Of a stretch of 32,000 bases of DNA, positions 4,795 through 16,637 are shown piece after piece. Position 1 is the first letter of the stretch, and every line of letters starts with the position of its first letter. The notes beneath the pieces are model-generated. The model did not search any database and was not told the DNA's origin. It was given only the letters and a program-made list of their open reading frames with translations. The position numbers and the translations under genes were made by a program. This stretch comes from Candidatus Methanoperedens sp. GTDB lineage: Archaea > Halobacteriota > Methanosarcinia > Methanosarcinales > Methanoperedenaceae. The stretch spans positions 105,703-137,702 of the forward strand of contig JBAQMZ010000029.1 of NCBI GenBank assembly GCA_049303315.1, written 5' to 3'.

Positions 4795-4827
4795 AAATCC
4801 CGCGCCGCCTGTTATAAGTATTCTCAT
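4780..4827 (-). pseudogene. 15-codon stub of an NAD-dependent epimerase gene (MRILITGGAGFIIAS*)
   Basis: The ATG lies 5 nt downstream of the uxs stop. The Rossmann start ITGGAGF is followed by divergence into repeat copy B and an immediate stop. Confidence 0.55.
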
Positions 4828-4831
4828 TTAT

Positions 4832-5761
4832 TTATTCTAAAATACCTTTAAAGTACTTTATCGTTTCTTTTATCCCCTGCTCAAGTGAAACTTCCGGTTC
4901 CCACTCCAACAGTTCTCGCGCCTTCCCAATATCAGGTCTTCTCTGCTTTGGGTCATCAACAGGCAGCTCCTTAAAAGTAATTTTTGAATCGCTGCCTGTT
5001 ATCCTGATAATGAGTTTTGCAAATTCCAGTATCGAATACTCCTCTGGATTCCCGATATTCACAGGCTGAGTATAATCCGACATCATCAACCGGTAAATCC
5101 CTTCAACTTCATCACTCACGTAGCAGAAACTTCTGGTCTGAGAACCGTCGCCGTACACAGTCAGGTCTTCTCCGCGCAAAGCCTGCCCGATGAAATTCGG
5201 GACAACCCGCCCGTCATTCAGGCGCATCCTTGGACCATAGGTGTTAAATATCCTCACAATCCGCGTATTCACGCCATGATACCTGTGATATGCCATAGTT
5301 ATAGCCTCAGCAAACCGCTTTGCCTCATCATATACACCCCTGGGACCAATCGGGTTCACGTTTCCCCAATACTCCTCGGTCTGGGGATTCACAAGCGGGT
5401 CGCCGTAAACCTCGGATGTCGAAGACAGCAAAAAGCGTGCACCCTTCTCCTTGGCGAGACCGAGCATATTATGCGTACCAAGTGCCCCGACCTTCAATGT
5501 CTGGATTGGAAGTTCAAGGTAATCAATCGGGCTTGCAGGACTTGCAAGATGGAACAGGAAGTCGATATCGTCATCAATGTAAAGTGGCTTTGTCACATCA
5601 TGTTTTATGTAGCTGAATTTGTTATTGTCTATATGGGCAATATTTCTTGCATCTCCTGTTATGAGATTGTCCACACAAATTACCTCATATCCCTTCTCGA
5701 GCAGTAAATCGCAAAGATGCGAGCCAATAAATCCTGCACCGCCTGTTGCCATTGTTTTCAT
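4832..5761 (-). CDS. uxs: UDP-glucuronate decarboxylase (UDP-xylose synthase)
   Basis: [25 protein letters not shown] and the long block [48 protein letters not shown] are all characteristic of UXS enzymes. Confidence 0.85.
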
Positions 5762-5767
5762 ATTACC

Positions 5768-6772
5768 TCAGAATTCAATAGATGATGAATCCCCTATATT
5801 AAGCGAGTTATGTTTTCCAAGCACGCTGGCATCATCCCCAACAATGGAATCATGTAGATTTACTTTAGATATATGCGTTCGTGAACCGATTACACTGTTC
5901 GAAATAATGCTGTTATCGATATATGAATCACTCGCAATGGAGGCATGGGGGCCAATCACAGAGTTCAATATCGTAACATTATCGCCGACAGCAACAGGCT
6001 GGATGATTACTGAATCTTTTATCCGGTGTATATGGTCAATATCCTCTTTTTCATCAAGGAGTACCCTGTTTGTTTCAAGCAGTGATTCGGAATGACCACA
6101 GTCGTACCAGCTTGAAACCGGGAAGATTTTTAATTTGAGATTCCTGTTTACCATCTCCTGCAATGCATCGGTAAGCTGGAATTCACCCCGGGTACGAATA
6201 TCATTATGAATCATATCCTCAATTATCGACAGGAGAACCGATGTTTCCTTTATGAAATACACACCTGCTATCCCGAGGTTTGATGCGGGTTTCTGGGGTT
6301 TTTCCTCCAGCCTTTTAATATATTTTCCTTCGTGTTCTACAATACCGTATTTTGTCGGGTCATCAACTTCACGGACACCTATTGAAGCTGAACACTCTCC
6401 ATTATTTGAATATTGCCTGTAAAAATCAGAATAACCTGCCTTGAAAATCATATCGCCGAGTGCAATCATTATTTCCGAATCACCGATTTCATCCCTTGCG
6501 GTGTAAACAGAATGAGCAAGACCGAGTTGTTCATCCTGAGAGACATATTTTATGTTGAAAACGCGGGAATAATTCTCATTGACATAGGAAATAATCTGTT
6601 CTTTCTTGTAACCCACAACCAGTATCACTTCCTCTGGTTCCAGCTCCTTCATCCTGTCAAGGATATGCCCGATTATAGGTTTTCCTGCAATATATACCAT
6701 AGGCTTTGGTTTGGTGAACGTATGCGGAAAAAGACGCTTACCAGCACCTGCTGCCGGTATGACTACTTTCAT
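5768..6772 (-). CDS. Sugar-1-phosphate nucleotidylyltransferase with a C-terminal left-handed beta-helix domain
   Basis: N-terminal VIPAAGAGKRLFP..KPKPMV signature and a hexapeptide-like C-terminus. The ATG at 6772 is preferred over the GTG at 6778 used by the track. Sits between ugd and uxs. Confidence 0.8.
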   Translation of the reverse strand: MKVVIPAAGAGKRLFPHTFTKPKPMVYIAGKPIIGHILDRMKELEPEEVILVVGYKKEQIISYVNENYSRVFNIKYVSQDEQLGLAHSVYTARDEIGDSEIMIALGDMIFKAGYSDFYRQYSNNGECSASIGVREVDDPTKYGIVEHEGKYIKRLEEKPQKPASNLGIAGVYFIKETSVLLSIIEDMIHNDIRTRGEFQLTDALQEMVNRNLKLKIFPVSSWYDCGHSESLLETNRVLLDEKEDIDHIHRIKDSVIIQPVAVGDNVTILNSVIGPHASIASDSYIDNSIISNSVIGSRTHISKVNLHDSIVGDDASVLGKHNSLNIGDSSSIEF

Positions 6773-6774
6773 GT

Positions 6775-6930
6775 TCACACTCTCCTGTACTCATCATCAA
6801 ACCTGACGATGTCTTCCTCGTCCACGCTGTCTCCAAGCTGTACTTCAATAATCTCAAGTAGAAGTTTCCCCGGATTGGAAACTCTGTGCTTTGAACCGAC
6901 ACGTATTATTGACTTTATGTTTCCATCTCC
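6775..6930 (-). pseudogene. Start-less C-terminal remnant of a cupin-type mannose-6-phosphate isomerase / ManC C-domain
   Basis: A 51-codon open frame without a start codon: GDGNIKSIIRVGSKHRVSNPGKLLLEIIEVQLGDSVDEEDIVRFDDEYRRV*. It matches the HR.eNPG...EVQ.G.....EDDIVR..D.Y.R tail of type II PMI/GMP enzymes. Bounded upstream by TGA (6931-6933). Confidence 0.5.
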
Positions 6931-6990
6931 TCAACCTGCATTAATTTCTTACAAATATATGTGAGCTGCATATTTAAATTATACCTTTAC

Positions 6991-8274
6991 CTACCAGCAC
7001 AGACCAATGTATTCAATATCATCACGCGGAACGAGCATATGCCTGCCATCTATTACCACCCGGTTTTCCATAACCGCAAATTCCTTACCAAGGGTTTTGA
7101 ACTCGTCCCATTCTGTCATTATAAGGCAGGCGTCAGCGCCACGTAATGCAGCAGCCGCCGAGTCATGGTATTCGATGTTCTTGAAAATCCGCTTCATGTT
7201 ATCATTTGCCATGGGGTCGTATGCGCAAACTCGCACACCGTTGTCAAGTAGTTCTTTTATGACAGGAATAGACCTTGACTCCCTTATATCATCCGTATCA
7301 TTCTTGAAAGCAAGTCCCAAAATAGCTATCTTCTTTCCATTCAGGTTCCCGAGCTTATTTTTAAGCAATGTCACCATCATGGAAGGCTGTTTTTCATTCA
7401 CATCAATTACGGATTTAAGAAGTACCGGTTCATAACCAATTTCTTTAGCTTTACCGATTAAGGCTTTTACATCCTTCGGGAAACATGAACCTCCAAACCC
7501 AGCTCCAGCGTTTAAGAAGTTCGGCCCAATCCTGAAATCCTTTCCAACGGCAGACATTACCTCATAGGTATCGATGCCGAGTTTCTTACAAATGTTCCCG
7601 ACCTCGTTGGAAAAAGAAATCTTTGTGGCAAGAAACGAATTATTTACGTATTTTATCATCTCGGCTGTACGCGGGTTTGTCCGTGTAACCTCACAATCCA
7701 GACCGCTGTAAAGTGAGGCTACAATGTCGCCTGATTTTTTATCAAGTGAACCCACGACAATTTTGTCAGGGTTCATGAAATCGTAAACCGCTTTTCCTTC
7801 ACGAAGAAACTCCGGGTTCATGGCAATCCCGAAATCCCCGGCTCGCTTTCCCGAATGTTCTTCAATAATCGGCAGTACCACCTTTTCCGTGGTTTCAGGT
7901 ACGACCGTGCTTTTTACAACCACAACATGGTAGTTTTTTTTCGTTTTCAGGGCATCACCAAGACTTGCACTTGCAGCCCTGACGATACTGAGGTCGATAT
8001 TGCCGTCAGAATCTGACGGCGTTCCCACGCAAATAAACGATACGTCAGAGTTATTTACTGCAAAATCATAGTCTGATGTGGCGCTCAGCCCCTTTCCTGC
8101 GTGCTTATTAAGTAGTTTGGAAAGCCCCTCTTCATATATCGGTGGGATTCCGGCATTTATCTGGTCTATTTTTGTGCTATCGATATCAACGCAAATAACA
8201 TTGTGCCCGAGTTCAGCAAAACATGAAGCACTGACTGTGCCTACATACCCGGTTCCTATTACAGAGATTCTCAT
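6991..8274 (-). CDS. ugd: UDP-glucose 6-dehydrogenase
   Basis: N-terminal VIGTGYVGTVSASCFAELGH and the catalytic-Cys motif GFGGSCFPKDVKAL. Length is 427 aa. Confidence 0.9.
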   Translation of the reverse strand: MRISVIGTGYVGTVSASCFAELGHNVICVDIDSTKIDQINAGIPPIYEEGLSKLLNKHAGKGLSATSDYDFAVNNSDVSFICVGTPSDSDGNIDLSIVRAASASLGDALKTKKNYHVVVVKSTVVPETTEKVVLPIIEEHSGKRAGDFGIAMNPEFLREGKAVYDFMNPDKIVVGSLDKKSGDIVASLYSGLDCEVTRTNPRTAEMIKYVNNSFLATKISFSNEVGNICKKLGIDTYEVMSAVGKDFRIGPNFLNAGAGFGGSCFPKDVKALIGKAKEIGYEPVLLKSVIDVNEKQPSMMVTLLKNKLGNLNGKKIAILGLAFKNDTDDIRESRSIPVIKELLDNGVRVCAYDPMANDNMKRIFKNIEYHDSAAAALRGADACLIMTEWDEFKTLGKEFAVMENRVVIDGRHMLVPRDDIEYIGLCW

Positions 8275-8350
8275 AAATACGTCCTTTTTCCTTCTTTTAA
8301 ACTATACGGATATATTAGCTGTTAGATAATTGTACTCGACAGTCAAATAA

Positions 8351-8443
8351 TCATTCCGTTAAACTAATAAAACCTGACGAAATAACTCTATCGTCCATCA
8401 GTGCTCCAACAAATCCCGCGCCGCCAGTCACCATGCATTTCAT
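8351..8443 (-). pseudogene. 30-codon stub of an NAD-dependent epimerase gene (MKCMVTGGAGFVGALMDDRVISSGFISLTE*)
   Basis: A Rossmann N-terminus only, lying upstream of ugd on the same strand. Below the ORF-track length cutoff. Confidence 0.45.
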
Positions 8444-8570
8444 GCCTGTAAAATTGAACTGACATTACTTAAATCCTCTCCCAGAGCTCAAAGCCCTGCG
8501 CCAGCCTCTGTACGACCACAGCACTGCCAGGGTGGTTTTGCTTGCATGTGTCGGGAATAGTAGAAATGAT

Positions 8571-8595
8571 GTTGCTTCGGTTAGCATATCGGCGC
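8571..8595 (+). repeat. Repeat-module copy C, left half only (gttgcttcggttagcatatcggcgc), cut off by the insertion
   Basis: Matches the 5' part of copies E, A and B. The expected continuation (c-ggnnntttaatattta...) is found only at 12649 onward. Confidence 0.75.
8580..8595 (+). repeat. Left copy of the 16-bp direct repeat (putative target-site duplication) gttagcatatcggcgc
   Basis: Identical 16-mer at 12633-12648. The boundary is ambiguous by 1 nt, so the duplication is 15-16 bp. Confidence 0.75.
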
Positions 8596-8596
8596 A

Positions 8597-8642
8597 CGCC
8601 CCCCGCTCTGCATTTTCATGGTTTTTATTTATCTCTTTGTCC
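8597..8642 (+). repeat. Left terminal inverted repeat
   Basis: The tip cgccccccgc (8597-8606) is the exact reverse complement of 12624-12633. The block 8621-8642 (gtttttatttatctctttgtcc) matches the reverse complement of 12588-12609 at 17/22, at the same 23-nt offset from the tip. Confidence 0.7.
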
Positions 8643-8674
8643 TCTCTCGGGTTCACAATCATTAATATATCCTT

Positions 8675-8696
8675 GTTTTTATTTATACTTTTGTAC
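8675..8696 (+). repeat. Second subterminal copy of the 22-bp arm motif (gtttttatttatacttttgtac)
   Basis: Matches 8621-8642 at 18/22 and the reverse complement of 12588-12609 at 19/22. Confidence 0.55.
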
Positions 8697-8720
8697 TTTC
8701 GTTTTCTTCTTATATCTTTT

Positions 8721-8790
8721 TCACACCTCCCCCCACCACAGCACGTGACCACACCCTCACACACACAGCACACGCACACAGAGAGAAAAA
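8721..8790 (+). other. Strand-asymmetric C/A-rich, nearly T-free low-complexity tract in the left arm
   Basis: tcacacctccccccaccacagcacgtgaccacaccctcacacacacagcacacgcacacagagagaaaaa, with a central cacgtg palindrome. ORFs called across it translate to low-complexity Cys/Val/Gly or His/Thr/Pro strings. Confidence 0.5.
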
Positions 8791-8944
8791 AGTAAAACCG
8801 CTATCAAGCGGCGCTTTTATAAACACTATTCTTATAAAAAATGTAAATAAAATTCTCTCGATAACGATTATTTTAAATTTTATTAATATTATAAATAATT
8901 TACGCAAAAATCGCTATTGGTAAACACTTTTTATCTTAGGAAAA

Positions 8945-8981
8945 GCTTATATATAATAACAACTATATTACATAATCGTTA
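8945..8981 (+). promoter_or_regulatory. Candidate promoter/operator of the plus-strand cargo operon
   Basis: A TATA-like cttatatataat at about 8947-8958 is followed by taatcgtta (8973-8981). That 9-mer is the inverted partner of taacgatta at 8862-8870 and is related to the ttaacgatt tandem in the right arm. Confidence 0.3.
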
Positions 8982-9080
8982 CGTGTTGTCTGGTTGCAGG
9001 GAATCAAGTCTTTTTTCCCTGTAACTATTCCTGATTATAGGGAATATAGGCAGGTAACAGGAAAAGACCAGGAAGATAAC

Positions 9081-9620
9081 ATGTTGAATGAAATAAACAA
9101 TCCACTTAGTGGCGACACTATAAATCAAATAGTAGAAGATATTATAGGGGTTAATAAGGACAGCACAAACCGAATAGGACAACAACATTTAAAAGATATT
9201 ATACTTTGTGTTCATTCAAGAGCGCCTATAAAAAAAAGCACTCTTGTATCTATTTTGAGGGTAAAAATTCTAATCGGGGAAAGGTATGTAAACGAATATT
9301 TAGATGGTTTAGAAGCCTTAGAAATCATAAAACTTGATAAAAATATGATTCTTTGGAATTTTAACGATACTATAAAACCCGCAGAAATCCCCACAAAACA
9401 ACCATTAAATAATCATTTTAAACCCGATAAGAATGAGTTTAAAACGATAATAAAAGATGCTTCAAAGCAAATATATGACCAACGGGAAGAATTAAAAATT
9501 AAGGCAGATTCAGCCGAAGGAATCCCCTTTGAAGAAATGCTAAAACTCACGCCTTTTTCTGAATTGGGGATGAATCAGGAACAGTTTGAAACGTGGGTAT
9601 TAACACAAATTGAGGGTTAA
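9081..9620 (+). CDS. Winged-helix DNA-binding protein (putative element regulator)
   Basis: The segment KKSTLVSILRVKILIGERYVNEYLDGLEALEIIKLDKNMILWN reads as helix-turn-helix plus wing. ATG 9081 is preferred; the track starts at TTG 8994 in the same frame, so the start is uncertain. Confidence 0.55.
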   Translation: MLNEINNPLSGDTINQIVEDIIGVNKDSTNRIGQQHLKDIILCVHSRAPIKKSTLVSILRVKILIGERYVNEYLDGLEALEIIKLDKNMILWNFNDTIKPAEIPTKQPLNNHFKPDKNEFKTIIKDASKQIYDQREELKIKADSAEGIPFEEMLKLTPFSELGMNQEQFETWVLTQIEG

Positions 9621-9621
9621 T

Positions 9622-9846
9622 ATGCTATCTTTGAAAATTCGTTATCGGAAGAATGCAAAACCGACAGTTATTAATCTTGATGTTTCAGGTAATACAACTA
9701 TCGAAGAAATTGCAGAACAGGCAGCAAACAAGCTCGCAAAAGGGTTTAAAAGATATGCAACAGGTATTTCAGAAAGAAGCCTTGAAAAATACCGCTTTGC
9801 ACAATATATGATGTTGAAATTAAAGTTATCGGAGATGATTAAATAA
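9622..9846 (+). CDS. Hypothetical small protein (74 aa)
   Basis: ATG at 9622 preceded by gaggg (9612-9616). Its stop overlaps the next start (TAATG). Confidence 0.45.
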   Translation: MLSLKIRYRKNAKPTVINLDVSGNTTIEEIAEQAANKLAKGFKRYATGISERSLEKYRFAQYMMLKLKLSEMIK

Positions 9847-10121
9847 TGGCAAGAGATGTTGAAATTGAATTGGATTACGACAGTCAAACGGTAACTATTG
9901 TAAATCCTGATGGGGTTTATAGTTACGATATGACCGATGATATACTGAAATTAGCGAATGACTTGCTTGAAGGCGGTGCGGGATACAGTGTTTATTCGCA
10001 GGAAGACACATGGACGGAACAAATCAGCGATAAAATAGAGAAGCGCAGACAACTAAAAGAACAGTTGGCAGAGCTTGATGATGAAATCAGAGAAATAAAA
10101 GAAAAACATAAAGGAGGATGA
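9846..10121 (+). CDS. Hypothetical small acidic protein with a charged helical C-terminal tail (91 aa)
   Basis: Coupled start and stop with its neighbours. The C-terminus KIEKRRQLKEQLAELDDEIREIKEKHK looks like a coiled coil. Confidence 0.5.
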   Translation: MARDVEIELDYDSQTVTIVNPDGVYSYDMTDDILKLANDLLEGGAGYSVYSQEDTWTEQISDKIEKRRQLKEQLAELDDEIREIKEKHKGG

Positions 10122-10125
10122 AATA

Positions 10126-10818
10126 ATGGCAAATGAAGAACTTAAAGACCTTGTAGAAACCGCAAACAGACAAGATATAAGATTCCTGTTTAATCGCTTT
10201 GACTGTAACAATTTAGAAAAAGCTTTCCGTGTGGCACACGAATTAAATCAGAAAGTGGATAAACCGATATGCAAAGGCTTTATTGAAAAGGATGGAAAGC
10301 TATTCAAACAGATGTCAAAAACTGTATGGCGTGTGGGTAGGAATTATGACCGTAACGTAGTTCTCGAAGTGGATAACCACGATTTAAATAACCTGCGAGA
10401 GCTATATAATTTCTATAAGTCACTTCTTGGACAGGATTTTAACGTATTCAAAACCTTACATGGTTTTCACGTAATCCAGAAAGTAGCGTACAAAACAAAT
10501 GATGAATGGCTCTATGCTAACAGTTTGTTATTGAATCCGTCTTTGAAGTTAGAGGATTTAGCAGATTACGTTGAAAAGATAAAGGCTTTCGATAACAGTA
10601 AACGCAACGATGATACCGTAAAAGATACTCATAAACTGTTGGGCACAAAAGAAGATTACATTAGAGACTTTAAGAAATCTGGATTATTTCAAGGTACTGG
10701 CGAGTTCGACCTTCTATATACTATCCGTGGAATATGTTTTAATAAGTACACATTGAGAATATCAAAGAAAACACCAACTGACAAATACGAACGGGTAGAC
10801 ATGGAGAAATTGACATGA
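10126..10818 (+). CDS. Hypothetical protein (230 aa) with weak archaeo-eukaryotic primase / prim-pol-like motifs
   Basis: aggagg-like RBS (ggaggatg) upstream. Candidate motifs are VVLEVDNHD (acidic metal-binding strand), KTLHGFHVI (compare sGxGxHhh) and NDEWLYANSLLLNPS (compare hD...hhhPPS). The assignment rests on motifs only. Confidence 0.5.
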   Translation: MANEELKDLVETANRQDIRFLFNRFDCNNLEKAFRVAHELNQKVDKPICKGFIEKDGKLFKQMSKTVWRVGRNYDRNVVLEVDNHDLNNLRELYNFYKSLLGQDFNVFKTLHGFHVIQKVAYKTNDEWLYANSLLLNPSLKLEDLADYVEKIKAFDNSKRNDDTVKDTHKLLGTKEDYIRDFKKSGLFQGTGEFDLLYTIRGICFNKYTLRISKKTPTDKYERVDMEKLT

Positions 10819-11111
10819 AAATCGATAAAATACCAATAGAGGAGGCGTATAACCTCATTTTACATCCGATACAGCACATAATATCCATAAATCCACGGAT
10901 AATAACCCGTATGGAGTTGATTCTATTACATGCAGTTAATCCGGTGCTGGCAGATAAGGTATTCCAAGAAGGTAACCTATCGGATGAAGTGCGAGAATCA
11001 CTTACACCAACACCAGAACAATACAAAGCGAGATTAGTTGAGCAATATAGAATATGTGAAACAAAATCACATAAAAAAGGTTGGAAGAAATTTAAAAAAG
11101 GATTAAAATGA
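10815..11111 (+). CDS. Hypothetical protein (98 aa) with a basic C-terminal tail
   Basis: ATGA overlap with the upstream stop. Tail sequence KSHKKGWKKFKKGLK. Confidence 0.45.
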   Translation: MKIDKIPIEEAYNLILHPIQHIISINPRIITRMELILLHAVNPVLADKVFQEGNLSDEVRESLTPTPEQYKARLVEQYRICETKSHKKGWKKFKKGLK

Positions 11112-11284
11112 AGATTAGAGACGTTATAAAAATCCAAAGAAAAGAAGCAGTAAAAACTAAAACAAGTATCCGCTTTGCGCTAAAAAGCGATACTGATAAA
11201 GGTTTTTATTGTAGATTATTTGATAATCAAGTTAAGTTTTGCAGTATAACTTTTTGTAATTATTTAACTTTGTGTGAAAGATGA
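11108..11284 (+). CDS. Possible 58-aa Cys-containing ORF (below the track cutoff)
   Basis: ATGA overlap with the upstream stop. Translation MKIRDVIKIQRKEAVKTKTSIRFALKSDTDKGFYCRLFDNQVKFCSITFCNYLTLCER* contains four Cys residues. Confidence 0.3.
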   Translation: MKIRDVIKIQRKEAVKTKTSIRFALKSDTDKGFYCRLFDNQVKFCSITFCNYLTLCER

Positions 11285-11292
11285 AATTTAAA

Positions 11293-12336
11293 CTATAACA
11301 TTTTTTCAATTTTCCGTATCAATGGAAGGCTTTTAAGCTCTAATGGGTTAAGTACAAACATAAACTCATTCAAAGCAATATCAAAAGCATTATCTTTGAA
11401 GGTCATGCTCATTTTATCTTTTGTAAAAGTGAAATCAGTTGGTTTTATTCTTAATCCTAAAATCATCTCTATAACCTGACTGTCAATCCATACCCTATAA
11501 GGCTCTATGAAATCATAAACAAGCATATTCCAGTAAGGTTTTTGTGCTTCATTCTGATGCATGAAGCCTATGGATAGCTCAAAACCACGTTTTAATAATA
11601 GTTCACTCATTCTTTGAGCTAACAAAGAATAACCTAAATTCAACATGGAGTTTATCGGGTCAACTGCATTTTTATTACCTGATACTTTCCCGTGCCTGCC
11701 TTTCCAATTCCATTCTTTACCAAACACCCAGTTTTTGAAATATAGATTTGCTGAAATGGCTTCTATTTGCATAATCTCTTTTATATCCAGTGCCTTGTTA
11801 AGTTTAGGGATATAATCTTTCATGCCTTGCGATTCCAGTTTTAACTTTATCAAATATTTAGTTATCTCCAATGCTTTGCCGTTAATCCTTGATTCCACTT
11901 GTTTTATAATCAATGATGGTCTTTTAAAATTGAACGGTAAAAAGCTTGCATCAACTTTACCTTTGCTATCAATCCAGTATATTGCTATCGAATTAGCTTT
12001 AGCAAAATCAATAAAAGCAGTAGAAATATAACCTTTTCCATTAGGCGTTATGATAATTCTTTCAGTATTATGAAGGTCTATCGGATAATCCTTTTTAACC
12101 TCTATTTTTTTGTTGTGCTCTCTAAGGAATTTTAGATATAATTTACCATGATGATTTATTCTCTTTTCAGGTAATCCGGCTTTCTTATCCCGTTCTAATT
12201 GCTGGCTCATTAATTCGTCAATTTCACTATCGGTATAAGGTCTTTCTGTTGTTTCAATATGTGTAAATACGGGTTTAAGATTCTGCTTTCTTAGAGCAAA
12301 TAGACTATTTATCAATAATGACGATTCATTATTCAT
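11293..12336 (-). CDS. cas1: Cas1-family integrase homolog, solo (casposase-like)
   Basis: The Cas1 architecture is readable by eye. N-terminal beta domain: ERIIITPNGKGYISTAFIDFAKANSIAIYWIDSKGKVDASFLP. Glutamate motif: QIEAISANLYFKNW. Also NAVDPINSMLNLGYSLLAQ, histidine motif LSIGFMHQ and acidic motif LVYDFIEPYRVWID. No cas2, cas4 or CRISPR array in the window. Confidence 0.8.
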   Translation of the reverse strand: MNNESSLLINSLFALRKQNLKPVFTHIETTERPYTDSEIDELMSQQLERDKKAGLPEKRINHHGKLYLKFLREHNKKIEVKKDYPIDLHNTERIIITPNGKGYISTAFIDFAKANSIAIYWIDSKGKVDASFLPFNFKRPSLIIKQVESRINGKALEITKYLIKLKLESQGMKDYIPKLNKALDIKEIMQIEAISANLYFKNWVFGKEWNWKGRHGKVSGNKNAVDPINSMLNLGYSLLAQRMSELLLKRGFELSIGFMHQNEAQKPYWNMLVYDFIEPYRVWIDSQVIEMILGLRIKPTDFTFTKDKMSMTFKDNAFDIALNEFMFVLNPLELKSLPLIRKIEKML

Positions 12337-12409
12337 ACGAGTTCACCAATTTATATAAAGCTTCAATCCAATTTATAACTTGCCTATCCCTTAATTACGA
12401 GTTCACCAA
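12336..12409 (-). promoter_or_regulatory. cas1 promoter region: palindromic TATA box flanked by two 14-bp direct repeats
   Basis: tttatataaa at 12350-12359 has its upstream edge 23 nt from the A of the ATG, which implies a leaderless or near-leaderless mRNA. tacgagttcaccaa occurs at 12336-12349 (overlapping the start codon) and again at 12396-12409. Confidence 0.45.
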
Positions 12410-12519
12410 ACTGTTTTTTTGGGGTAGGTACTTTACTTTTCTTAGACTGCACCGCTTGTTAGTGATTATTTTGTGTGAATACGGGATACTCCGATTTTAG
12501 GGAAAGAGTATGAAGGTAT

Positions 12520-12595
12520 AATTGTACAAATAGGACAATAATTGTTAACGATTCTTAACGATTGTCAACCAGAACGAGAATCTAATTGCACAAAT
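12520..12595 (+). repeat. Right-arm subterminal repeats
   Basis: aattgtacaaat (12520-12531) and aattgcacaaat (12584-12595) match 11/12. They bracket a tandem ttaacgatt (12545-12553 and 12555-12563, 10-bp period). Confidence 0.6.
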
Positions 12596-12633
12596 GTATA
12601 AATAATAACATTAATATAAATAGGCGGGGGGCG
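12588..12633 (-). repeat. Right terminal inverted repeat
   Basis: The reverse complement reads cgccccccgc...gttattatttatacatttgtgc, pairing with 8597-8642. Confidence 0.7.
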
Positions 12634-12648
12634 TTAGCATATCGGCGC
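12633..12648 (+). repeat. Right copy of the 16-bp direct repeat (putative target-site duplication)
   Basis: gttagcatatcggcgc, identical to 8580-8595. Confidence 0.75.
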
Positions 12649-12710
12649 CGGGAGTTTAATATTTATGATGTGATAATAGTTCCTGTCAGTCCTGTTAATC
12701 CTGTCAAAAA
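12633..12710 (+). repeat. Repeat-module copy D, right part, continuing copy C
   Basis: gttagcatatcggcgccgggagtttaatatttatgatgtgataatagttcctgtcagtcctgttaatcctgtcaaaaa aligns with copy A. It has three tcctgt 9-mers where A has two. Confidence 0.75.
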
Positions 12711-12724
12711 TTCATGACACGGGG

Positions 12725-12776
12725 GTTGCTTCGGGAGCATACTGGCGCCGCCAATTTAATATTCACGATGTAATAT
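12725..12776 (+). repeat. Repeat-module copy E
   Basis: gttgcttcgggagcatactggcgccgccaatttaatattcacgatgtaatat. Confidence 0.7.
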
Positions 12777-12960
12777 ATGTATCTTTCGCCCCCCCATCGA
12801 GCACTTGCCTCTCCCACCCTCCCTGCGCTAAAACCCCACCTTTGCTTTGCACAATAGCAAAAGACTGGGATGATGGCAAGAAAGAGTGGGTATTTAAATA
12901 ATTCATGTCACCTGAGTTTATGTTGCATGAGATGGCAACGCTTCAACCGAGAGTAAACCC

Positions 12961-12986
12961 CCGCCTTCAGGCGGTGCCTCTTTTTC
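12961..12986 (+). terminator. Hairpin plus oligo-T, terminator-like
   Basis: ccgcc-ttca-ggcgg (12961-12974) is followed by tgcctcttttt. A second hairpin, ctgggc-gaa-gcccag, lies at 12997-13011. Confidence 0.3.
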
Positions 12987-13085
12987 CTCGTCGGGTCTGG
13001 GCGAAGCCCAGCGCAATGGCAAGTTTTAATATCAGATTAATGGGATTGATAGTATAATGAAGTCAAGTACACATAAGTGGTGAAA

Positions 13086-15161
13086 ATGAATAACAAAAAA
13101 GTTAATGCCTTTATCGCATTTTCCGTCCTTTTCAGCTACGGTATAACACTCTTAATGATAAAATACCCTGCTTCCTACACAAGCGGCTCTCCTGTCGCTT
13201 TATTCTGGTCGGGAGTACCTATAGTCAGCATTGGAAAAAGCTTGTTTTTCCTTTTATTTGCCCTTATCGTTTCATACGTATTATCAAACATGAAACTGGA
13301 ATTTGATGAACGATACGCTCCGATTTATTTGTTTATAGCAGCATTTACTATCTCACTGTTCCTCTGGGGTATGCCGGAAGTTAACAACGATTATCGCGTA
13401 TATTTCGATTATGCGAAGACCGTTGAGGTCAACGGTTTGCAAAGTATCAACCAAGTAGTGCAATCGGGTTCAACATATTTCGTTATGCCGGTTTTGGATG
13501 GATACTTATTTAAGTTATTCGGGGAAGGAAGATTAATTATACAGATTCTCCGCACAACGCTCTTCGCTTTAACTGCCGTGGTAACATATTATATCGGCAA
13601 GGAGTTATGGGATAAAAGAGTGGGGCTTATTGCCGGAATACTGCTCTTATCATTTCCATATTTCCTTTCGATGAGCCATTTAATGCTCATAGATGTGCCC
13701 CTTGCATTTTTTGTATCACTCTCGGTTTTTGCTCTCATTAAGGCTCGGGACAGCAGGAAATGGTTTGTTATCCTTATACCTGTGCTCCTGTTAACGTTAT
13801 TTACGAAAAAGACCGGAATAGTATATCTTGGATTTTTGCTGCCAGTAGTGCTTCTGGCGTTATTTATTAAATATAAATGGAAGATTCTTAAAATAGCGGC
13901 TCCGGTTTTGGCAATAATAAGTTTTATCGCCGTGATAGAATTTTCAGATTTTTTAAAATGGACAGTGGAGTCGCTGCTCCACGGCCAGTCAGTAGCCTAT
14001 ATGTCTCACGGCATGTATTGGATTAATCCCCAGTATTATTTGAAATCCCTGCCCATTGTTATCGGTCCGATTGTGGCCATATTGGCTTTCGGCTCTATCG
14101 TACTCCTTCTCAGGAGGAGAGACCATCGCTTATTGATTCCTGTGGCATGGATGATTATCCCTATCTTTATAATGGTCAATCCGGCTTTCAGGCATCTGAT
14201 TCCTGCCTATCCTGCATATGCCCTTGCTGCTGCTGTTGTACTTATTGAAGTGGAGAAGGGAATTAGCATAGGTAAAAAATCTTTTAAGCTGGATGGACAA
14301 AACTGGAAATTCCTTGTTTCTTCTACCATACTCCTTTCAATCTTCATGGCATTGCTTGTATTTCCCCAGATAGAGGCTACTCATATGCAGGTTAATATTA
14401 AGGAGGCTGCGGAGTACACAAACGAGTTAGGAGTCAGTAATATCTCGCTCGTCACAATTGGTGATTCAGGATTTAATTGGTATGGGCAGGGAGGGGACTT
14501 CAGGAATATGTACGATTATTATTCTACCGCTAAGGTTGACTATTTCCCGGCGCAGCAATTCCAGGATACAAATCCAGACTCAATAGTAGTCGTCAGCACA
14601 GTCATTAACCCGGATATTCCTGCGCCCTTGAATAATACCATACATAACTACTATCTGTCCAAAATCTTCAGCAAGGGTGATTACGAATATTTCGCCCCTG
14701 CAATTTTCTCGGTATATCTGTCGCAGATCGAGTACCATTCAAGGTATCCAGAGTTCCTGCAGAATATCGGCAAAAAAATGAAGGTAGAGGTATTCGAGGT
14801 TGCAAACCCAAATGCAGGCATTTTGAATTTTGTTACCTGGACGCCTTCGGACAGGAAAATATTGGATAAAAACGTAAGCGTAACCTGGACGATCAAGGCA
14901 GAAGAAGAGCCTCTGGAAGTTGGCTTTTATTATCGTAAACAAGACGGCTTCTTCGCTGATAAAGAGGGAGAAGAGAAAATACAGAAAAGAAGCACAGTAG
15001 AAATAACAAGGGTTATCGAGCCCGCCCAGACCATGGATACGTATATAAGGGCTGTACCTATTGAAGTCGGCGGCAGGAAAATGAAGATAATAAACGTTAC
15101 CTTCAGATCAGAGTTTTACAACATTTCAATTACGAGGAACATGGAAGGATTTAGTTTTTAA
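13086..15161 (+). CDS. Polytopic membrane protein, putative GT-C fold glycosyltransferase (ArnT/PMT family-39-like) with a C-terminal soluble domain
   Basis: More than 10 hydrophobic segments over the first 430 aa or so, an acidic first loop (EVNNDYRVYFDYAK), then a roughly 250-aa hydrophilic domain. Glycan-cluster context. ATG 13086 is preferred over GTG 13077. Confidence 0.45.
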   Translation: MNNKKVNAFIAFSVLFSYGITLLMIKYPASYTSGSPVALFWSGVPIVSIGKSLFFLLFALIVSYVLSNMKLEFDERYAPIYLFIAAFTISLFLWGMPEVNNDYRVYFDYAKTVEVNGLQSINQVVQSGSTYFVMPVLDGYLFKLFGEGRLIIQILRTTLFALTAVVTYYIGKELWDKRVGLIAGILLLSFPYFLSMSHLMLIDVPLAFFVSLSVFALIKARDSRKWFVILIPVLLLTLFTKKTGIVYLGFLLPVVLLALFIKYKWKILKIAAPVLAIISFIAVIEFSDFLKWTVESLLHGQSVAYMSHGMYWINPQYYLKSLPIVIGPIVAILAFGSIVLLLRRRDHRLLIPVAWMIIPIFIMVNPAFRHLIPAYPAYALAAAVVLIEVEKGISIGKKSFKLDGQNWKFLVSSTILLSIFMALLVFPQIEATHMQVNIKEAAEYTNELGVSNISLVTIGDSGFNWYGQGGDFRNMYDYYSTAKVDYFPAQQFQDTNPDSIVVVSTVINPDIPAPLNNTIHNYYLSKIFSKGDYEYFAPAIFSVYLSQIEYHSRYPEFLQNIGKKMKVEVFEVANPNAGILNFVTWTPSDRKILDKNVSVTWTIKAEEEPLEVGFYYRKQDGFFADKEGEEKIQKRSTVEITRVIEPAQTMDTYIRAVPIEVGGRKMKIINVTFRSEFYNISITRNMEGFSF

Positions 15162-15281
15162 AAATACTGTATTCAGCGTCCGGTTAGCCATTGGTGTAAC
15201 ATAGAGATATTCAAAACCAGGAAAATATTATGATATTGATTTTTTTCACATTTGCATTATGAGATTGTGCAGAGGGGTAGT

Positions 15282-16631
15282 ATGAACTACATTAAACAGC
15301 CTGATGAAATAAAAATAATGTTTATCAATCCAGATTATATAAGCGGATTCAACTCGTATAAAAAGAATTCAATACTTAATCACGGTCTTCTTCAGATTGC
15401 TACATGTGCACAAAAAGCCGGATTTGATGTTACTTTTGTAGACACCAGAATGTTGAAGAACTGGAAAGATTTAGAAAGCACAATCAGCAGAGCACATCCA
15501 GACGTAGTAGCAACCGGTGGTATGAGCGTGAACTTTGGCTGGGCGCTAAAATGCATAGACATTGCAAAAAAAATCGATCCGGCTATTATAACTGTTATAG
15601 GGGGAGTTCATGCATCAATACGTCCTGACGAGGCTCTCTCTAAGGATGAAATTGACCACATAATAACAGGAGAAGGTGAAATCTCATTCATAGGATTGAT
15701 CCAAAACCTGTTTATTCACAGGGTAAAACAGCCAAGATTAATAAACGGGCAGAAACCAGAATTAGATGAGTTGCCTTTTATTAACCGTTCATTTTTGCCA
15801 TACTTTGAACTTAACAACCCAATATGGTTTGGCAAAAAGCCCTGGATAACAATTATAGCAGGAAGAGGTTGTCCTTATAAATGTAAATTCTGCCAGCCGT
15901 CTGAAAATATTTTATTCGGTACAGGCGTTCGAATCAGAAGTCCTGAAAATGTTATTGCTGAGGTCATCGAACTTCAGGAAAAATATTCATTCGATTATGT
16001 GCATTTCCATGATGACTGTCCTACATTTAGCAAAAAATGGATTGAAGATTTTTGTGAAAAATACGTTGATGCGGGATTTACCCAGAACTTTGCTGTAGCA
16101 GCGCGTGCCGATATATTATGTAAAAATGAAGATATGATATCTATCTTAGCTCGCGCAGGTTGCGATACGGTTTCTATTGGATTTGAAAGCGGCAGTCAGA
16201 GGATATTGGATTTTTTAGGCAAAGGTACTACGGTTGAACAAAATATCAAATCCGCAGAATTATGCCATAAGTATGGAATTAAGATTGTGGCTAACTATAT
16301 GTTTGGCGTACCGATAGAGACCCTGGATGATGTCAGAGCTACTCTGGAGATGCTGGACAAAATAAAACCAGATTATCGAAGCCCTGCATACTTTACACCA
16401 TATCCAGGTACATACCTGTACGATTATTGTGCAGAAAAGAATATTTCACTATTGCAAGAGTATAAAGATTTTAATAGATATCCGGATTCACACAAAATTA
16501 AAGGCATTGATTATAAATCAATTGAAAAACTCAGGATGGAGTACGGCGATTTAGGAAAAAATCGTTATATTCTACATTCCATAGTAAAAGAGTATCAACA
16601 TATTAAACGTGGTATATTAAATCAAGGATAA
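15282..16631 (+). CDS. B12-binding-domain radical SAM enzyme
   Basis: CxxxCxxC cluster motif GRGCPYKCKFC, preceded by a roughly 150-aa Rossmann-like N-terminal domain. ATG 15282 follows gagggg (15272-15277); the track starts at TTG 15252. Confidence 0.75.
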   Translation: MNYIKQPDEIKIMFINPDYISGFNSYKKNSILNHGLLQIATCAQKAGFDVTFVDTRMLKNWKDLESTISRAHPDVVATGGMSVNFGWALKCIDIAKKIDPAIITVIGGVHASIRPDEALSKDEIDHIITGEGEISFIGLIQNLFIHRVKQPRLINGQKPELDELPFINRSFLPYFELNNPIWFGKKPWITIIAGRGCPYKCKFCQPSENILFGTGVRIRSPENVIAEVIELQEKYSFDYVHFHDDCPTFSKKWIEDFCEKYVDAGFTQNFAVAARADILCKNEDMISILARAGCDTVSIGFESGSQRILDFLGKGTTVEQNIKSAELCHKYGIKIVANYMFGVPIETLDDVRATLEMLDKIKPDYRSPAYFTPYPGTYLYDYCAEKNISLLQEYKDFNRYPDSHKIKGIDYKSIEKLRMEYGDLGKNRYILHSIVKEYQHIKRGILNQG

Positions 16632-16637
16632 AGCGCT

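What the first reader, a model, noticed from the sequence alone, without database searches (positions are those of the whole stretch)
8580..12648. A 4.0-kb insertion with target-site duplication and inverted termini whose only recombinase candidate is a solo Cas1: a compact, polymerase-less casposon-like element
**Seen in the sequence**
- A perfect 16-bp direct repeat, gttagcatatcggcgc, lies at 8580-8595 and 12633-12648.
- Directly inside it, cgccccccgc (8597-8606) faces its exact reverse complement (12624-12633).
- A second block at the same 23-nt offset from both tips matches 17/22 (8621-8642 versus the reverse complement of 12588-12609).
- The left flank ends mid-way through a repeat module (copy C stops at ...atcggcgc). 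The right flank supplies exactly the missing remainder (c-gggagtttaatatttatgat...).
- So the two flanks reconstitute one module with a 16-bp overlap, rather than being two complete copies.
- The same module is present uninterrupted at 4625-4695 (...cttatcggcgccaggattttaatattt...), which acts as an in-window empty-site control.
- The interior is visibly more AT-rich than the flanking sugar genes and is packed with short coupled ORFs.
- None of those ORFs looks like a tyrosine or serine recombinase or a DDE transposase. One is a Cas1 homolog.

**Established knowledge**
- Casposons are Cas1-dependent transposons with TIRs and TSDs of roughly 14-15 bp.
- As far as I recall, every described family carries a family-B DNA polymerase and is considerably larger than 4 kb.

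**Inference**
- This would be a Cas1-mobilised element that dispenses with PolB.
- It could be a minimal casposon lineage, or a Cas1-solo element type not yet described as mobile.
- The perfect TSD and intact ORFs suggest a recent insertion.
Basis: partly seen in the sequence, partly recalled or inferred. Interest (0 to 1): 0.95.

Follow-up and report, generated by a model that had tools for sequence, protein, structure and literature searches.

The report
Small polymerase-less Cas1 transposon (mini-casposon)
A 4-kb mobile element in a methane-oxidising archaeon (Candidatus Methanoperedens) has inverted ends, a 14-bp target duplication and a Cas1 integrase but no DNA polymerase, so it looks like a stripped-down relative of the casposons thought to have given rise to CRISPR spacer acquisition.

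Summary
A 4,039-bp A+T-rich insertion (8596-12634) splits a repeated host intergenic module. Its tips are a perfect 11-nt inverted repeat, present only at these two sites in 32 kb. It is flanked by a perfect direct repeat: 16 nt as read, 14 nt once the tips are assigned to the element.

The only recombinase candidate is a 347-aa Cas1 with all four catalytic residues. The window has no cas2, CRISPR array, PolB or other transposase.

Independent copies settle the interpretation. L002 (3,608 bp, 219-nt perfect TIRs, 14-bp TSD) and L034 (3,701 bp, 234-nt TIRs) share the gene core: Cas1, a 230-270-aa orphan protein and a 73-91-aa protein. They also share the end architecture: a G+C-rich tip and TTATTTATCTCTTTGT at positions 30-45. 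A decayed copy (L030) is inserted at the same position of the same host module as in the window.

It fails one defining casposon feature, PolB. The conserved orphan protein has primase-like motifs, but no significant structural or profile match confirms them.

No true empty site was found and no activity is shown. I found no description in the searchable literature.

Verdict: a new PolB-less variant of casposons; interest 0.78.

The parts
8582..8595 (.). [quoted passage not shown] The perfect direct repeat runs from 8580.
   Evidence: (D13)
8596..8640 (+). Left terminal inverted repeat. The tip ACGCCCCCCGC (8596-8606) is perfect. An A+T-rich spacer follows, then the conserved subterminal 17-mer TTTATTTATCTCTTTGT (8624-8640).
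8674..8694 (+). Second left-end copy of the subterminal motif (TGTTTTTATTTATACTTTTGT). It is the best partner of the right-end motif (I2, 83% over 29 nt).
   Evidence: (I2, D17)
8735..8785 (.). CA-rich tract in the left subterminal region. Equivalent CA/GT tracts lie inside the long TIRs of L002, L034 and L092.
9081..9620 (+). ORF of 179 aa counted from the ATG at 9081 (208 aa from the TTG at 8994). No family match apart from a faint winged-HTH hint. Variable cargo or regulator.
9622..9846 (+). ORF of 74 aa. It is conserved in window-type relatives (72% identity in L026; also present in L012/L013).
9846..10121 (+). ORF of 91 aa. This is the small conserved core protein found immediately upstream of ORF230 in all intact elements (30% identity to the L002 73-aa protein, E 1e-4).
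10126..10818 (+). ORF230, the conserved partner of Cas1. It belongs to an orphan family with motifs IDID, KTxxGYH, FDILF and TLRISKK. It is a candidate replication or priming protein, unproven.
10815..11111 (+). ORF of 98 aa, overlapping the neighbouring ORFs by 4 bases. No family match.
11108..11284 (+). ORF of 58 aa. No family match.
11293..12336 (-). cas1, encoding a 347-aa casposase-like integrase. Catalytic residues E192, H260, D275 and E278 are present. It has no C-terminal HTH extension.
12336..12431 (-). Conserved cas1 5' region. A 14-nt direct repeat, tacgagttcaccaa, occurs at 12336-12349 (overlapping the start codon) and 12396-12409. An imperfect inverted repeat pairs 12381-12390 with 12421-12430. 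The same layout occurs in L002, L029/30, L013 and L092.
12590..12634 (-). Right terminal inverted repeat. The tip gcggggggcgt (12624-12634) is perfect. The subterminal motif lies at 12590-12609.
12635..12648 (.). [quoted passage not shown]
8566..8595 (+). Upstream half of the interrupted host module (gatgttgcttcggttagcatatcggcgc).
12635..12700 (+). Downstream half of the interrupted host module (…ggcgccgggagtttaatatttatgatg…), with a TATA-like box, upstream of the PMT-family glycosyltransferase gene at 13077.
   Evidence: (D1)

Best explanation
Window 8596-12634 is an integrated copy of a small (3.6-4.0 kb) casposon-like transposon of Candidatus Methanoperedens. Its Cas1 homologue is the integrase.

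**Inferred mechanism, by analogy with the M. mazei and A. boonei casposases.** A Cas1 oligomer binds the two ends at the G+C-rich 10-11-nt tip and at the subterminal TTATTTAT(C/A)(T/C)(C/A)TTTGT site about 30 nt inside. It joins the 3'-OH ends to target phosphates staggered by 14 bp. Host gap repair then produces the 14-bp duplication.

**Target choice is not random.** Insertions lie in repeated, G+C-rich intergenic host modules. In three of four junctions they fall immediately after GGCGC.

**The element carries no family-B polymerase.** Its conserved core is Cas1, a 230-270-aa orphan protein (ORF230) and a 73-91-aa protein. My best guess is that ORF230 is the element's replication or priming protein, possibly a very divergent AEP-like palm enzyme. 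That would replace PolB functionally. This step is the least supported.

**Shown:** anatomy, TSD, TIRs, conserved end motifs, an intact Cas1 active site, recurrence at different sites in different genomes, and absence of PolB, cas2 and CRISPR.

**Inferred:** that Cas1 catalyses the integration, the chemistry, and the roles of the end motifs and of ORF230.
For: **The window copy**
- Perfect 11-nt inverted tips unique to the two ends, abutting a perfect 14-bp TSD.
- The split host module is reconstituted by removing the element. Intact paralogues lie at 4625, 4749 and 12725.
- Interior G+C is 0.28-0.37 against about 0.43 outside.

**Independent copies**
- L002: 3,608 bp, 219-nt perfect TIRs, 14-bp TSD gaccccaacggaag.
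- L034: 3,701 bp, 234-nt TIRs, junction …ttcctgcccGGCGC|AGGGCAGG. The 4 nt of right flank left before the contig end match the predicted TSD.
- L030: same host module cut at the same position as in the window, with the element in the opposite orientation.
- L092 (Cas1 85% identical): the contig ends are reverse complements inside the CA/GT-rich tract that lies within the long TIRs of L002 and L034.
- Termini of four elements align without gaps, with TTATTTATCTCTTTGT at positions 30-45, although their Cas1 proteins are only 54-63% identical.

**Cas1**
- Above the Pfam and TIGR00287 cut-offs.
- Catalytic E192, H260, D275 and E278 align with the catalytic residues of solved Cas1 structures and are invariant in 26 family members.
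- Best PDB match is the M. mazei casposase 6OPM, at 96.6 bits against at most 76.3 for CRISPR Cas1.
- That enzyme makes 14-bp TSDs (PMC6977970).

**Absences**
- No cas2, CRISPR, PolB or other recombinase in the window.
- No CRISPR-like array in 42 loci.

**Core and cargo**
- Cas1 and ORF230 co-occur in the window, L002, L009, L010, L012/13, L026, L029/30, L034 and L092.
- Other members of the same Cas1 clade sit beside recognised AEP-TOTE primase and D5-type helicase genes. The clade is therefore repeatedly tied to non-PolB replication modules.
Against: - No empty site was found for the window insertion. In the same-species contig L085 (98% identical from 13119 on) the whole segment from about 4600 to 13100 is replaced by a toxin-antitoxin pair, so absence of the element there is not a clean pre-insertion allele.
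- No excised or circular form, no read-level data and no biochemistry are available.
- The window copy has only 11 perfect terminal bases plus an imperfect motif, whereas relatives have TIRs longer than 200 nt. It may be an eroded, immobile copy.
- The Cas1 lacks the C-terminal HTH that is essential in the M. mazei casposase.
- Its affinity to casposases rather than CRISPR Cas1 rests on score ranking only. With the single sequence, 6OPM and 7CR6 nearly tie at 51.8 and 47.4 bits.
- ORF230 has no significant structural or profile match to any polymerase or primase. hhalign against the AEP-TOTE proteins of L089 and L090 finds nothing.
- A sub-branch of the Cas1 clade, the DUF6908 block in L005 and L007, shows no TIR or TSD at its homology borders.
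Confidence: 0.8

Rival explanations
1. It is a non-autonomous or deletion derivative of a full-size, PolB-encoding casposon. A master element elsewhere in the genome supplies replication in trans, and perhaps integration too.
For: Internally deleted derivatives are common among DNA transposons. The window copy has much shorter perfect TIRs than its relatives. Decayed copies also exist: L030 with a frameshifted cas1, and P0016 with a truncated ORF230.
Against: The elements keep an intact, catalytically complete cas1. The same compact non-PolB gene core recurs in at least 8 loci from different samples. Three copies bounded by both termini are 3.6-4.0 kb, which leaves no room for a PolB gene. No PolB was recorded in any annotated neighbourhood of this Cas1 clade. 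The larger relatives carry AEP-TOTE and D5-helicase genes, not PolB.
Confidence: 0.07
2. It is an integrated small plasmid or virus-like replicon moved by another recombinase acting in trans. Cas1 would be cargo, for example a decoy that interferes with host CRISPR adaptation, and not the integrase.
For: Viruses and plasmids do carry solo cas genes; Methanoperedens viruses carry solo Cas4 (bioRxiv 10.1101/2023.08.02.551345). The Cas1 lacks the HTH needed by the M. mazei casposase. The DUF6908-type Cas1 block has no visible TIR or TSD.
Against: TIRs plus a fixed-length TSD whose sequence differs at every site are the signature of transposase-type strand transfer, not of att-site recombination. 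The 14-bp length equals the stagger of a characterised casposase. No tyrosine, serine or DDE enzyme occurs in the element, in the window or beside the relatives. The catalytic tetrad is invariant across the clade. Cas1 is the only protein of known function that is conserved with the ends.
Confidence: 0.08
3. It is a remnant of a CRISPR-Cas adaptation module or a domesticated Cas1, and the flanking repeat is a chance product of the repeated host modules.
For: Both flanks lie in a module family that is repeated nearby. A 14-mer direct-repeat pair 2-8 kb apart is not rare by itself, with a shuffled mean of 1.4 per window. The P0016 copy is fixed in one context in 13 contigs.
Against: Each flank is only half a module, and the halves overlap exactly by the duplication. 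The tips are inverted 11-mers found nowhere else in the window. L002, L034 and L030 reproduce the same anatomy independently. There are no arrays or cas2. All subtype-specific Cas1 models are far below their cut-offs.
Confidence: 0.03

Closest known systems
Family 2 casposons of Methanosarcinales (for example the Methanosarcina mazei casposons; casposase structure 6OPM)
   Same: - A Cas1-family integrase with the full catalytic tetrad.
- TIRs.
- A 14-bp TSD (PMC6977970).
- Sequence-preferring integration into intergenic or gene-end sites with a conserved motif at one TSD edge: CGCA there, GCGCC here in 3 of 4 sites.
- Euryarchaeal methane-cycling hosts.
- 6OPM is the best PDB match of the family profile.
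   Different: - No family-B DNA polymerase, no HNH nuclease, and none of the family 2 HTH genes were recognised.
- The element is 3.6-4.0 kb, whereas casposons are described as large transposons that all carry PolB.
- The Cas1 is 347 aa and lacks the C-terminal HTH that is essential in the M. mazei enzyme.
- The conserved partner genes (ORF230 and the 73-91-aa protein) are orphans.
Family 1 casposons of Thaumarchaeota (for example Ca. Nitrosopumilus koreensis AR1)
   Same: The casposase lacks the C-terminal HTH domain (abstract of PMC8464041). Integration is sequence-specific. The elements have TIRs and TSDs.
   Different: Family 1 elements encode a protein-primed PolB and a putative terminal protein (PMC4046053). 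The host phylum is different. No sequence comparison with a family 1 casposase could be made here.
Cas1-solo group 1 (Methanomicrobiales)
   Same: A stand-alone cas1 in a methane-cycling euryarchaeon, not linked to CRISPR or PolB.
   Different: Group 1 proteins lack the full set of catalytic residues and show no sign of horizontal transfer (PMC4046053). This clade has all four residues invariant and sits in elements with TIRs and TSDs at different sites.
CRISPR-Cas adaptation module (Cas1-Cas2)
   Same: A homologous integrase fold and active site. Staggered integration duplicates the target, as repeat duplication does in CRISPR arrays. Integration falls next to a specific upstream sequence.
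   Different: There is no cas2, no array, and a 14-bp rather than a 25-50-bp duplication. Two defined transposon ends are integrated rather than a spacer. All subtype-specific Cas1 models score below their cut-offs.
Small cryptic integrated elements and pRN/pTN2-type archaeal plasmids that replicate with AEP primase-polymerases
   Same: Size of a few kb and mostly orphan genes. Larger relatives in the same Cas1 clade carry AEP-TOTE and D5-like helicase genes. ORF230 has AEP-like motif order.
   Different: Those elements integrate with tyrosine recombinases at att sites or do not integrate at all. Here the integrase is Cas1, with TIRs and a TSD. ORF230 is not demonstrably an AEP.

Membership tests
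Casposons (Krupovic et al. 2014 definition) | Encodes a Cas1-family integrase (casposase) with the four catalytic residues | tested here: met
   PF01867 scores 118 bits and TIGR00287 scores 122 bits. E192, H260, D275 and E278 align with the catalytic residues of 6OPM, 7CR6 and 4N06 and are invariant in 26 homologues.
Casposons (Krupovic et al. 2014 definition) | Terminal inverted repeats | tested here: met
   The window has an 11-nt perfect tip, 30/45 overall. L002 has 219 nt perfect and L034 has 234 nt. The published range is 25-602 nt, so the window copy's perfect part is shorter than any listed.
Casposons (Krupovic et al. 2014 definition) | Target-site duplication of about 14-15 bp | tested here: met
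   14 bp in the window and in L002. L034 is consistent. The M. mazei casposase makes 14 bp.
Casposons (Krupovic et al. 2014 definition) | [quoted passage not shown] | tested here: not met
   The largest non-Cas1 ORF is 230 aa. No element ORF has a Pfam, NCBIfam or PHROGs polymerase match. Complete relatives are 3.6-3.7 kb. No PolB was recorded in the annotated neighbourhoods. The original survey found casposons by cas1-polB co-occurrence, so such elements would have been missed by design.
Casposons (Krupovic et al. 2014 definition) | Cas1 falls in the casposase clade (Cas1-solo group 2) in a phylogeny | tested here: inconclusive
   With the family profile, the best PDB match is casposase 6OPM at 96.6 bits against 76.3 for the best CRISPR Cas1. 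With the single sequence the two nearly tie at 51.8 and 47.4 bits. No tree including family 1-4 casposases could be built with the sequences available.
Casposons (Krupovic et al. 2014 definition) | cas1 not associated with cas2 or a CRISPR array | tested here: met
   No array or cas2 in the window. No CRISPR-like array in 42 loci, 291 kb. The region beyond the 32-kb window could not be examined.
Family 2 casposases | C-terminal helix-turn-helix domain of 60-70 residues | tested here: not met
   The protein ends about 18 residues after the Cas1 domain. The alignment to 6OPM stops at residue 316 of 431. The HTH is essential in M. mazei.
CRISPR-Cas adaptation Cas1 (any subtype) | Reaches a subtype-specific Cas1 model cut-off; adjacent cas2; adjacent array | tested here: not met
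   I-B 45.8 against a cut-off of 304; I-C 49.3 against 385; I-D 74 against 385; I-E 20.5 against 216; II 67.6 against 120; V 69.8 against 300. No cas2 or array.
Cas1-solo group 1 | Incomplete catalytic residue set; vertical inheritance in Methanomicrobiales | tested here: not met
   The full tetrad is invariant. Copies sit at different sites with TIRs and TSDs.
Archaeo-eukaryotic primase (AEP / prim-pol) superfamily, for ORF230 | Motifs I (hDhD), II (sGxGxH), III (hD) on an AEP palm fold; match to an AEP profile or structure | tested here: inconclusive

The most novel reading that the evidence does not exclude
These elements are a previously unrecognised, PolB-independent branch of Cas1 transposons native to Methanoperedens. 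They consist of a minimal HTH-less casposase, two short end-recognition sites and a new type of replication or priming protein (ORF230). They target repeated promoter-like intergenic modules.

The broader clade, whose Cas1 is coupled to ORF230, to DUF6908 or to AEP-TOTE/D5-helicase cargo, would show that Cas1 integrases mobilise a whole spectrum of archaeal elements beyond 'self-synthesizing' casposons.

That would weaken the assumed obligate Cas1-PolB link in scenarios for the origin of CRISPR adaptation. It would also offer a form closer to the hypothetical ancestor, with Cas1 alone inserting DNA next to a repeated genomic motif.
Probability: 0.55. Interest if true: 0.88.

Novelty: new variant of a known kind. 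Interest (0 to 1): 0.78.

Why it matters
Casposons are the accepted model for the origin of the CRISPR adaptation machinery. They have been defined, and originally searched for, by Cas1 plus PolB.

A family of 3.6-4-kb elements with TIRs, a 14-bp TSD and a catalytically intact Cas1 but no PolB would have three consequences.

1. **The link is separable.** It would show that Cas1-mediated transposition is separable from self-synthesis.
2. **A simple natural substrate.** The substrate would be a 347-aa HTH-less integrase, a tip of about 11 nt and one 16-17-nt subterminal site. This could be used to study how a casposase recognises its ends and a repeated genomic target. That is the step least understood in the casposon-to-CRISPR scenario.
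3. **A new mobile-element class in Methanoperedens.** This organism's mobilome (Borgs, mini-Borgs, plasmids) is under intense study.

The conserved orphan protein ORF230 has a confident predicted fold with no known relative. It is a candidate new replication protein.

A compact, sequence-preferring DNA integrase is also of practical interest.

Tried and rejected
1. **Empty site.** Exact-protein look-ups of the Cas1 and of the left-flank UDP-glucose dehydrogenase found no indexed contig. Orthologues of the right-flank PMT gene were found. However, L085 (98% identical downstream) and L087 carry a PIN toxin-antitoxin pair in place of window positions about 4600-13100. They give no clean pre-insertion allele.
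2. **Viral contigs.** The terminal 17-mer has 43 exact matches in IMG/VR. None encodes any element protein, so they are chance matches.
3. **Annotated plasmids and phages.** Only distant CRISPR Cas1 proteins at 25-29% identity were found. ORF230 has no match.
5. **Termini of other Cas1-clade contexts.** The DUF6908 block (L004, L005, L007) has no TIR or TSD at its homology borders. The AEP-TOTE/D5 elements (L089, L090) are cut by contig ends. L013 and L038-41 hold a fixed, rearranged copy beside Mrr-like genes. L030 has a left end only.
6. **Contigs of 3.7 kb as free forms.** L009, L019 and L020 end in a shared assembly sequence, not in TIRs.
7. **Bacterial promoter and terminator scan.** It is uninformative for an archaeon.
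8. **Rfam, tRNA and tandem-repeat scans of the window.** Nothing relevant was found.
9. **A spaced-pattern search for the L002-type tip plus motif.** It failed because I miscounted the spacer by one base. The ungapped alignment covers the point.

Full report
**1. The observation**

The repeat gttagcatatcggcgc lies at 8580-8595 and 12633-12648. The tip cgccccccgc at 8597-8606 faces its reverse complement at 12624-12633.

A script that extends inverted repeats outwards shows that the tips are 11 nt long: ACGCCCCCCGC at 8596-8606 and its complement at 12624-12634. They abut a 14-bp direct repeat, tagcatatcggcgc, at 8582-8595 and 12635-12648. The two further bases of the 16-nt repeat are an overlap between the right tip (…cgt) and the target (gt…).

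Allowing one mismatch, the 11-mer occurs only at these two places in the 32-kb window. Shuffles give 0.16 expected.

After the tip, the two ends match at 19 of 34 positions. This is not compelling alone: shuffle p is about 0.02, and 16 of 7,532 interior 34-mers do as well.

Interior G+C is 0.28-0.37 against 0.41-0.45 outside.

The flanks belong to a host repeat module of about 70 nt, with intact copies at 4625, 4749 and 12725 (D1). In the alignment, the left flank carries only the upstream half (gatgttgcttcggttagcatatcggcgc). The right flank carries only the downstream half (ggcgccgggagtttaatatttatgatg…, with a TATA-like box). The halves overlap only by the duplication. They are therefore not two complete modules.

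**2. Gene content**

The 347-aa ORF at 11293-12336 (-) is a Cas1. PF01867 scores 118 bits against a cut-off of 22.3. TIGR00287 scores 122 bits against a cut-off of 71.7. Every CRISPR-subtype-specific Cas1 model is far below its cut-off.

E192, H260, D275 and E278 align with the catalytic Glu, His, Asp and Asp/Glu of solved Cas1 proteins. They are invariant in an alignment of 26 homologues.

The six + strand ORFs (179, 74, 91, 230, 98 and 58 aa) have no Pfam, NCBIfam or PHROGs match.

The window has no tRNA, no Rfam match and no CRISPR-like tandem array. All other sizeable ORFs scanned are sugar-nucleotide, glycosyltransferase or housekeeping genes. None is cas2, PolB or a recombinase (for 13119-21668, see the L085 annotation).

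**3. Relatives**

The Cas1 is 100% identical to a protein of a Candidatus Methanoperedens MAG. About 100 clusters are 46-85% identical to it, after which the E-value jumps to 1e-9. The clade is therefore sharply delimited.

- **L002** (Cas1 54% identical) holds a 3,608-bp element with perfect 219-nt TIRs. It is flanked by the 14-bp repeat gaccccaacggaag and lies between unrelated host genes.
- **L034** (63% identical) holds a 3,701-bp element with 234-nt TIRs. Its left junction reads …ttcctgcccGGCGC|AGGGCAGG…. The contig ends 4 nt after the right tip, and those 4 nt (ttcc) match the start of the predicted 14-bp TSD.
- **L030/L029** hold a copy with a frameshifted cas1 and no recognisable right end. 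Its left junction reads gatggttgcatggggggcagacaGGCGC|AGGGCAGGCT…. This is the same host module, cut at the same position as in the window, with the element in the opposite orientation.
- **L092**, the closest relative (85% identical), is a 3,028-nt contig whose two ends are reverse complements within the CA/GT-rich tract. The assembly therefore broke inside long TIRs.

When the termini of the window (both ends), L002, L034 and L030 are laid side by side without gaps, all share one architecture. Each has a G+C-rich tip of about 10 nt, an A+T-rich spacer and TTATTTAT(C/A)(T/C)(C/A)TTTGT at positions 30-45. The exact 17-mer TTTATTTATCTCTTTGT lies 28-29 nt from the tip in the window and in L002. 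This in-register conservation between elements whose Cas1 proteins are only 54-63% identical turns the weak subterminal similarity in the window into a credible protein-binding site.

**4. Conserved core**

tblastn and blastp show that three proteins recur: Cas1, the 230-aa ORF (32% identical to the 269-aa ORF of L002, E 1e-29) and the small protein just upstream of it (91 aa here, 73-74 aa elsewhere, E 1e-4). They occur in the window, L002, L009, L010, L012/13, L026, L029/30, L034 and L092. The other ORFs vary.

L002 and L034 are about 88% identical in nucleotides over the cargo genes but about 71% over cas1, so the elements are mosaic.

Because three copies are delimited by both termini at 3.6-4.0 kb, the absence of a PolB gene is a property of the complete element. 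It is not a consequence of truncation.

**5. ORF230**

An exhaustive profile search finds 73 representatives, 60 of them at E < 1e-10. All are stand-alone proteins of 160-300 aa.

The 63-sequence alignment has invariant D83, R211 and K215. Its consensus is WRVG…IDIDxxDxxNL…KTxxGYHLI…FDILF…TLRISKK. From my own knowledge of the AEP superfamily, this order resembles AEP motifs I (hDhD), II (sGxGxH) and III (hD).

The AlphaFold model built on this alignment is confident, with mean pLDDT 89.4 and pTM 0.81. Even so, Foldseek finds no significant PDB or BFVD match. AEP polymerase domains (LigD-Pol, PriS, Prim-PolC) recur among the best hits for both models, but at E of 0.4 or worse and TM about 0.2.

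Profile searches of PDB and Pfam are empty. hhalign against bona fide AEP-TOTE proteins gives no signal.

I therefore treat 'AEP-like replication or priming protein' as the most likely guess, at about 0.35, and not as a finding.

**6. Wider clade**

Other Cas1 proteins of the same clade lie in different contexts.

- One group sits beside a DUF6908 protein, with RadC in L001. This is a conserved block of about 2.7 kb with no visible TIR or TSD at its borders.
- Another sits beside recognised AEP-TOTE primase and D5_N/DUF5906 helicase genes in L089 and L090. Their termini fall outside the available sequence.

No CRISPR-like array occurs in any of the 42 loci, 291 kb in total.

The clade thus looks like an integrase shared by several kinds of small Methanoperedens elements. 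At least one of them replicates with an AEP primase-helicase module rather than PolB.

**7. Target choice**

The window and L030 insertions cut the same promoter-like module immediately after GGCGC. The L034 insertion also follows GGCGC.

L002 lies in a different repeated host sequence, a G+C-rich palindrome (…ccccgccagcggcggcg[cttccgttggggtc]tggggtcgcaaccccagcgcc…). Copies of it occur in L030, L085 and L087.

GGTTGC lies 19-21 nt upstream of the insertion point in three of the four sites. This is an observation and has not been tested statistically.

The M. mazei casposase likewise makes 14-bp TSDs with a conserved CGCA at one edge and needs upstream sequence (PMC6977970).

**8. Comparison with the known**

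Casposons were defined as Cas1-plus-PolB elements and were found by searching for cas1-polB co-occurrence. The founding paper states that a PolB gene is present in all casposons and reports TIRs of 25-602 nt (PMC4046053).

This family meets the Cas1, TIR, TSD and no-CRISPR criteria and fails the PolB criterion. It also lacks the C-terminal HTH of family 2 casposases, which is essential in M. mazei. Family 1 casposases are HTH-less too (abstract of PMC8464041).

It is not Cas1-solo group 1, which lacks catalytic residues.

Among solved structures the family profile matches the casposase 6OPM best, at 96.6 bits against at most 76.3 for CRISPR Cas1. The single sequence gives a near tie, and no proper phylogeny could be built. 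Clade membership is therefore open.

Full-text searches found no description of PolB-less casposons or of Cas1 transposons in Methanoperedens. The searches were casposon with Methanoperedens; casposon or Cas1-solo; casposon with primase, lack and PolB; Cas1 with Methanoperedens and TIR; and casposon from 2024 to 2026. Subscription-only literature was not searchable.

**9. Limits**

- No true empty site was found. The same-species contig L085 (98% identical from 13119 on) carries a toxin-antitoxin pair in place of window positions about 4600-13100. The element is part of a larger strain-specific segment there.
- There are no read data and no biochemistry.
- The window copy's perfect TIR is short, so it may be less active than L002 or L034.
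- 'Recent insertion' rests only on the perfect TSD and the intact ORFs.

**10. Verdict**

Best explanation (0.8): a Cas1-mobilised, PolB-less, casposon-like transposon. It works like a casposon at the integration step. It is not a casposon by the published definition.

Novelty: a new variant of a known kind. Interest: 0.78.

Noticed in passing
window 4612-4690, 4736-4812, 12722-12790 (intact); 8566-8595 + 12635-12700 (split); L030 4795-4826: A repeated host intergenic module of about 70 nt, of the form GATGGTTGC…GGG…GGCGCC-n5-TTTAATATTTA, with an archaeal TATA-like box. It occurs in tandem pairs upstream of glycosylation genes and is the insertion target in two different genomes. Its own function, as a promoter or a regulator site, is unknown.
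   Followed up: partly
L002 4995-5046 + 8655-8700; L087 1968-2020 and 2195-2230; L085 8725-8775; L030 11398-11455: A second repeated host sequence, a G+C-rich palindrome (CCCCGCCAGCGGCGGCGC…GGGGTCTGGGG…CCCCAGCGC). It resembles a REP-like intergenic repeat of Methanoperedens and is the insertion target of the L002 element.
   Followed up: partly
window ~4600-13100 versus L085 7740-9034 and L087 488-2313: The three sugar-nucleotide genes (4832-8274, - strand) plus the element form a strain-specific segment. A same-species contig (98% identical from 13119 onwards) has an 84-aa/PIN toxin-antitoxin pair in its place. The glycosylation locus is a cassette-swapping hot spot, and the repeat modules sit at both borders.
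   Followed up: partly
window 8354-8443 (- strand): A 30-codon remnant of the N-terminus of an NAD-dependent epimerase (MKCMVTGGAGFVGAL…, a Rossmann GxGxxG motif) that ends in a stop. It is a truncated gene fragment next to the left flank of the insertion.
   Followed up: yes
window 12336-12431; L002 5290-5390; L029/L030 5891-6002; L013 3700-3791; L092 25-131: A conserved architecture lies upstream of cas1. The 13-19 nt that include the cas1 start codon are repeated about 60 nt upstream (tacgagttcaccaa twice in the window; tttggagaatctg twice in L002). An imperfect inverted repeat (tacctatccc / gggataggca) brackets the upstream copy. This is a likely regulatory operator or 5'-UTR structure. 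It was not analysed further.
   Followed up: no
window 8735-8785; L002 5186-5230 and 8470-8515; L034 TIRs; L092 both contig ends; L010, L011 5' ends: A CA/GT-rich, microsatellite-like tract lies 140-190 nt from the element tip. It is inside the long TIRs of the relatives but is present only at the left end of the window copy.
   Followed up: no
L002 5047-8654 versus L034 6640-10340: Two elements from the same metagenome are about 88% identical over the cargo genes but only about 71% over cas1 (Cas1 61% at the protein level). This indicates modular recombination between element lineages.
   Followed up: partly
L089 80-6160; L090 867-7404: Cas1 proteins of the same clade are linked to AEP-TOTE primase (PF22548) and D5_N/DUF5906 helicase genes. 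These appear to be larger Cas1-bearing elements with a primase-helicase replication module. Their ends lie outside the available sequence.
   Followed up: partly
L001 1332-3198; L003 4848-6596; L004, L005 4256-6939; L007 4546-7238: Another branch of the Cas1 clade lies in a conserved block of about 2.7 kb with a DUF6908 protein (plus RadC in L001). No TIR or TSD is detectable at the homology borders. In L001 and L003 it sits among defence-like genes (PLD nuclease, helicase, and a large uncharacterised protein).
   Followed up: partly
L003 (MFNH01000068.1): A contig deposited as Candidatus Levybacteria (a CPR bacterium) carries this otherwise Methanoperedens-restricted Cas1 clade. It is identical in layout to the JGI contig L014, so it is probably mis-binned.
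   Followed up: no
L038-L041 (P0016 locus): One copy is fixed in the same context in 13 contigs from several samples. It has an intact 345-aa cas1 and a truncated 181-aa ORF230, and it lies beside two Mrr-type restriction-endonuclease-like genes. It may be an immobilised or domesticated copy.
   Followed up: partly
window 27376-28392: A TPR-repeat protein accounts for the direct-repeat families D4 and D6 found at 27491-28282.
   Followed up: yes
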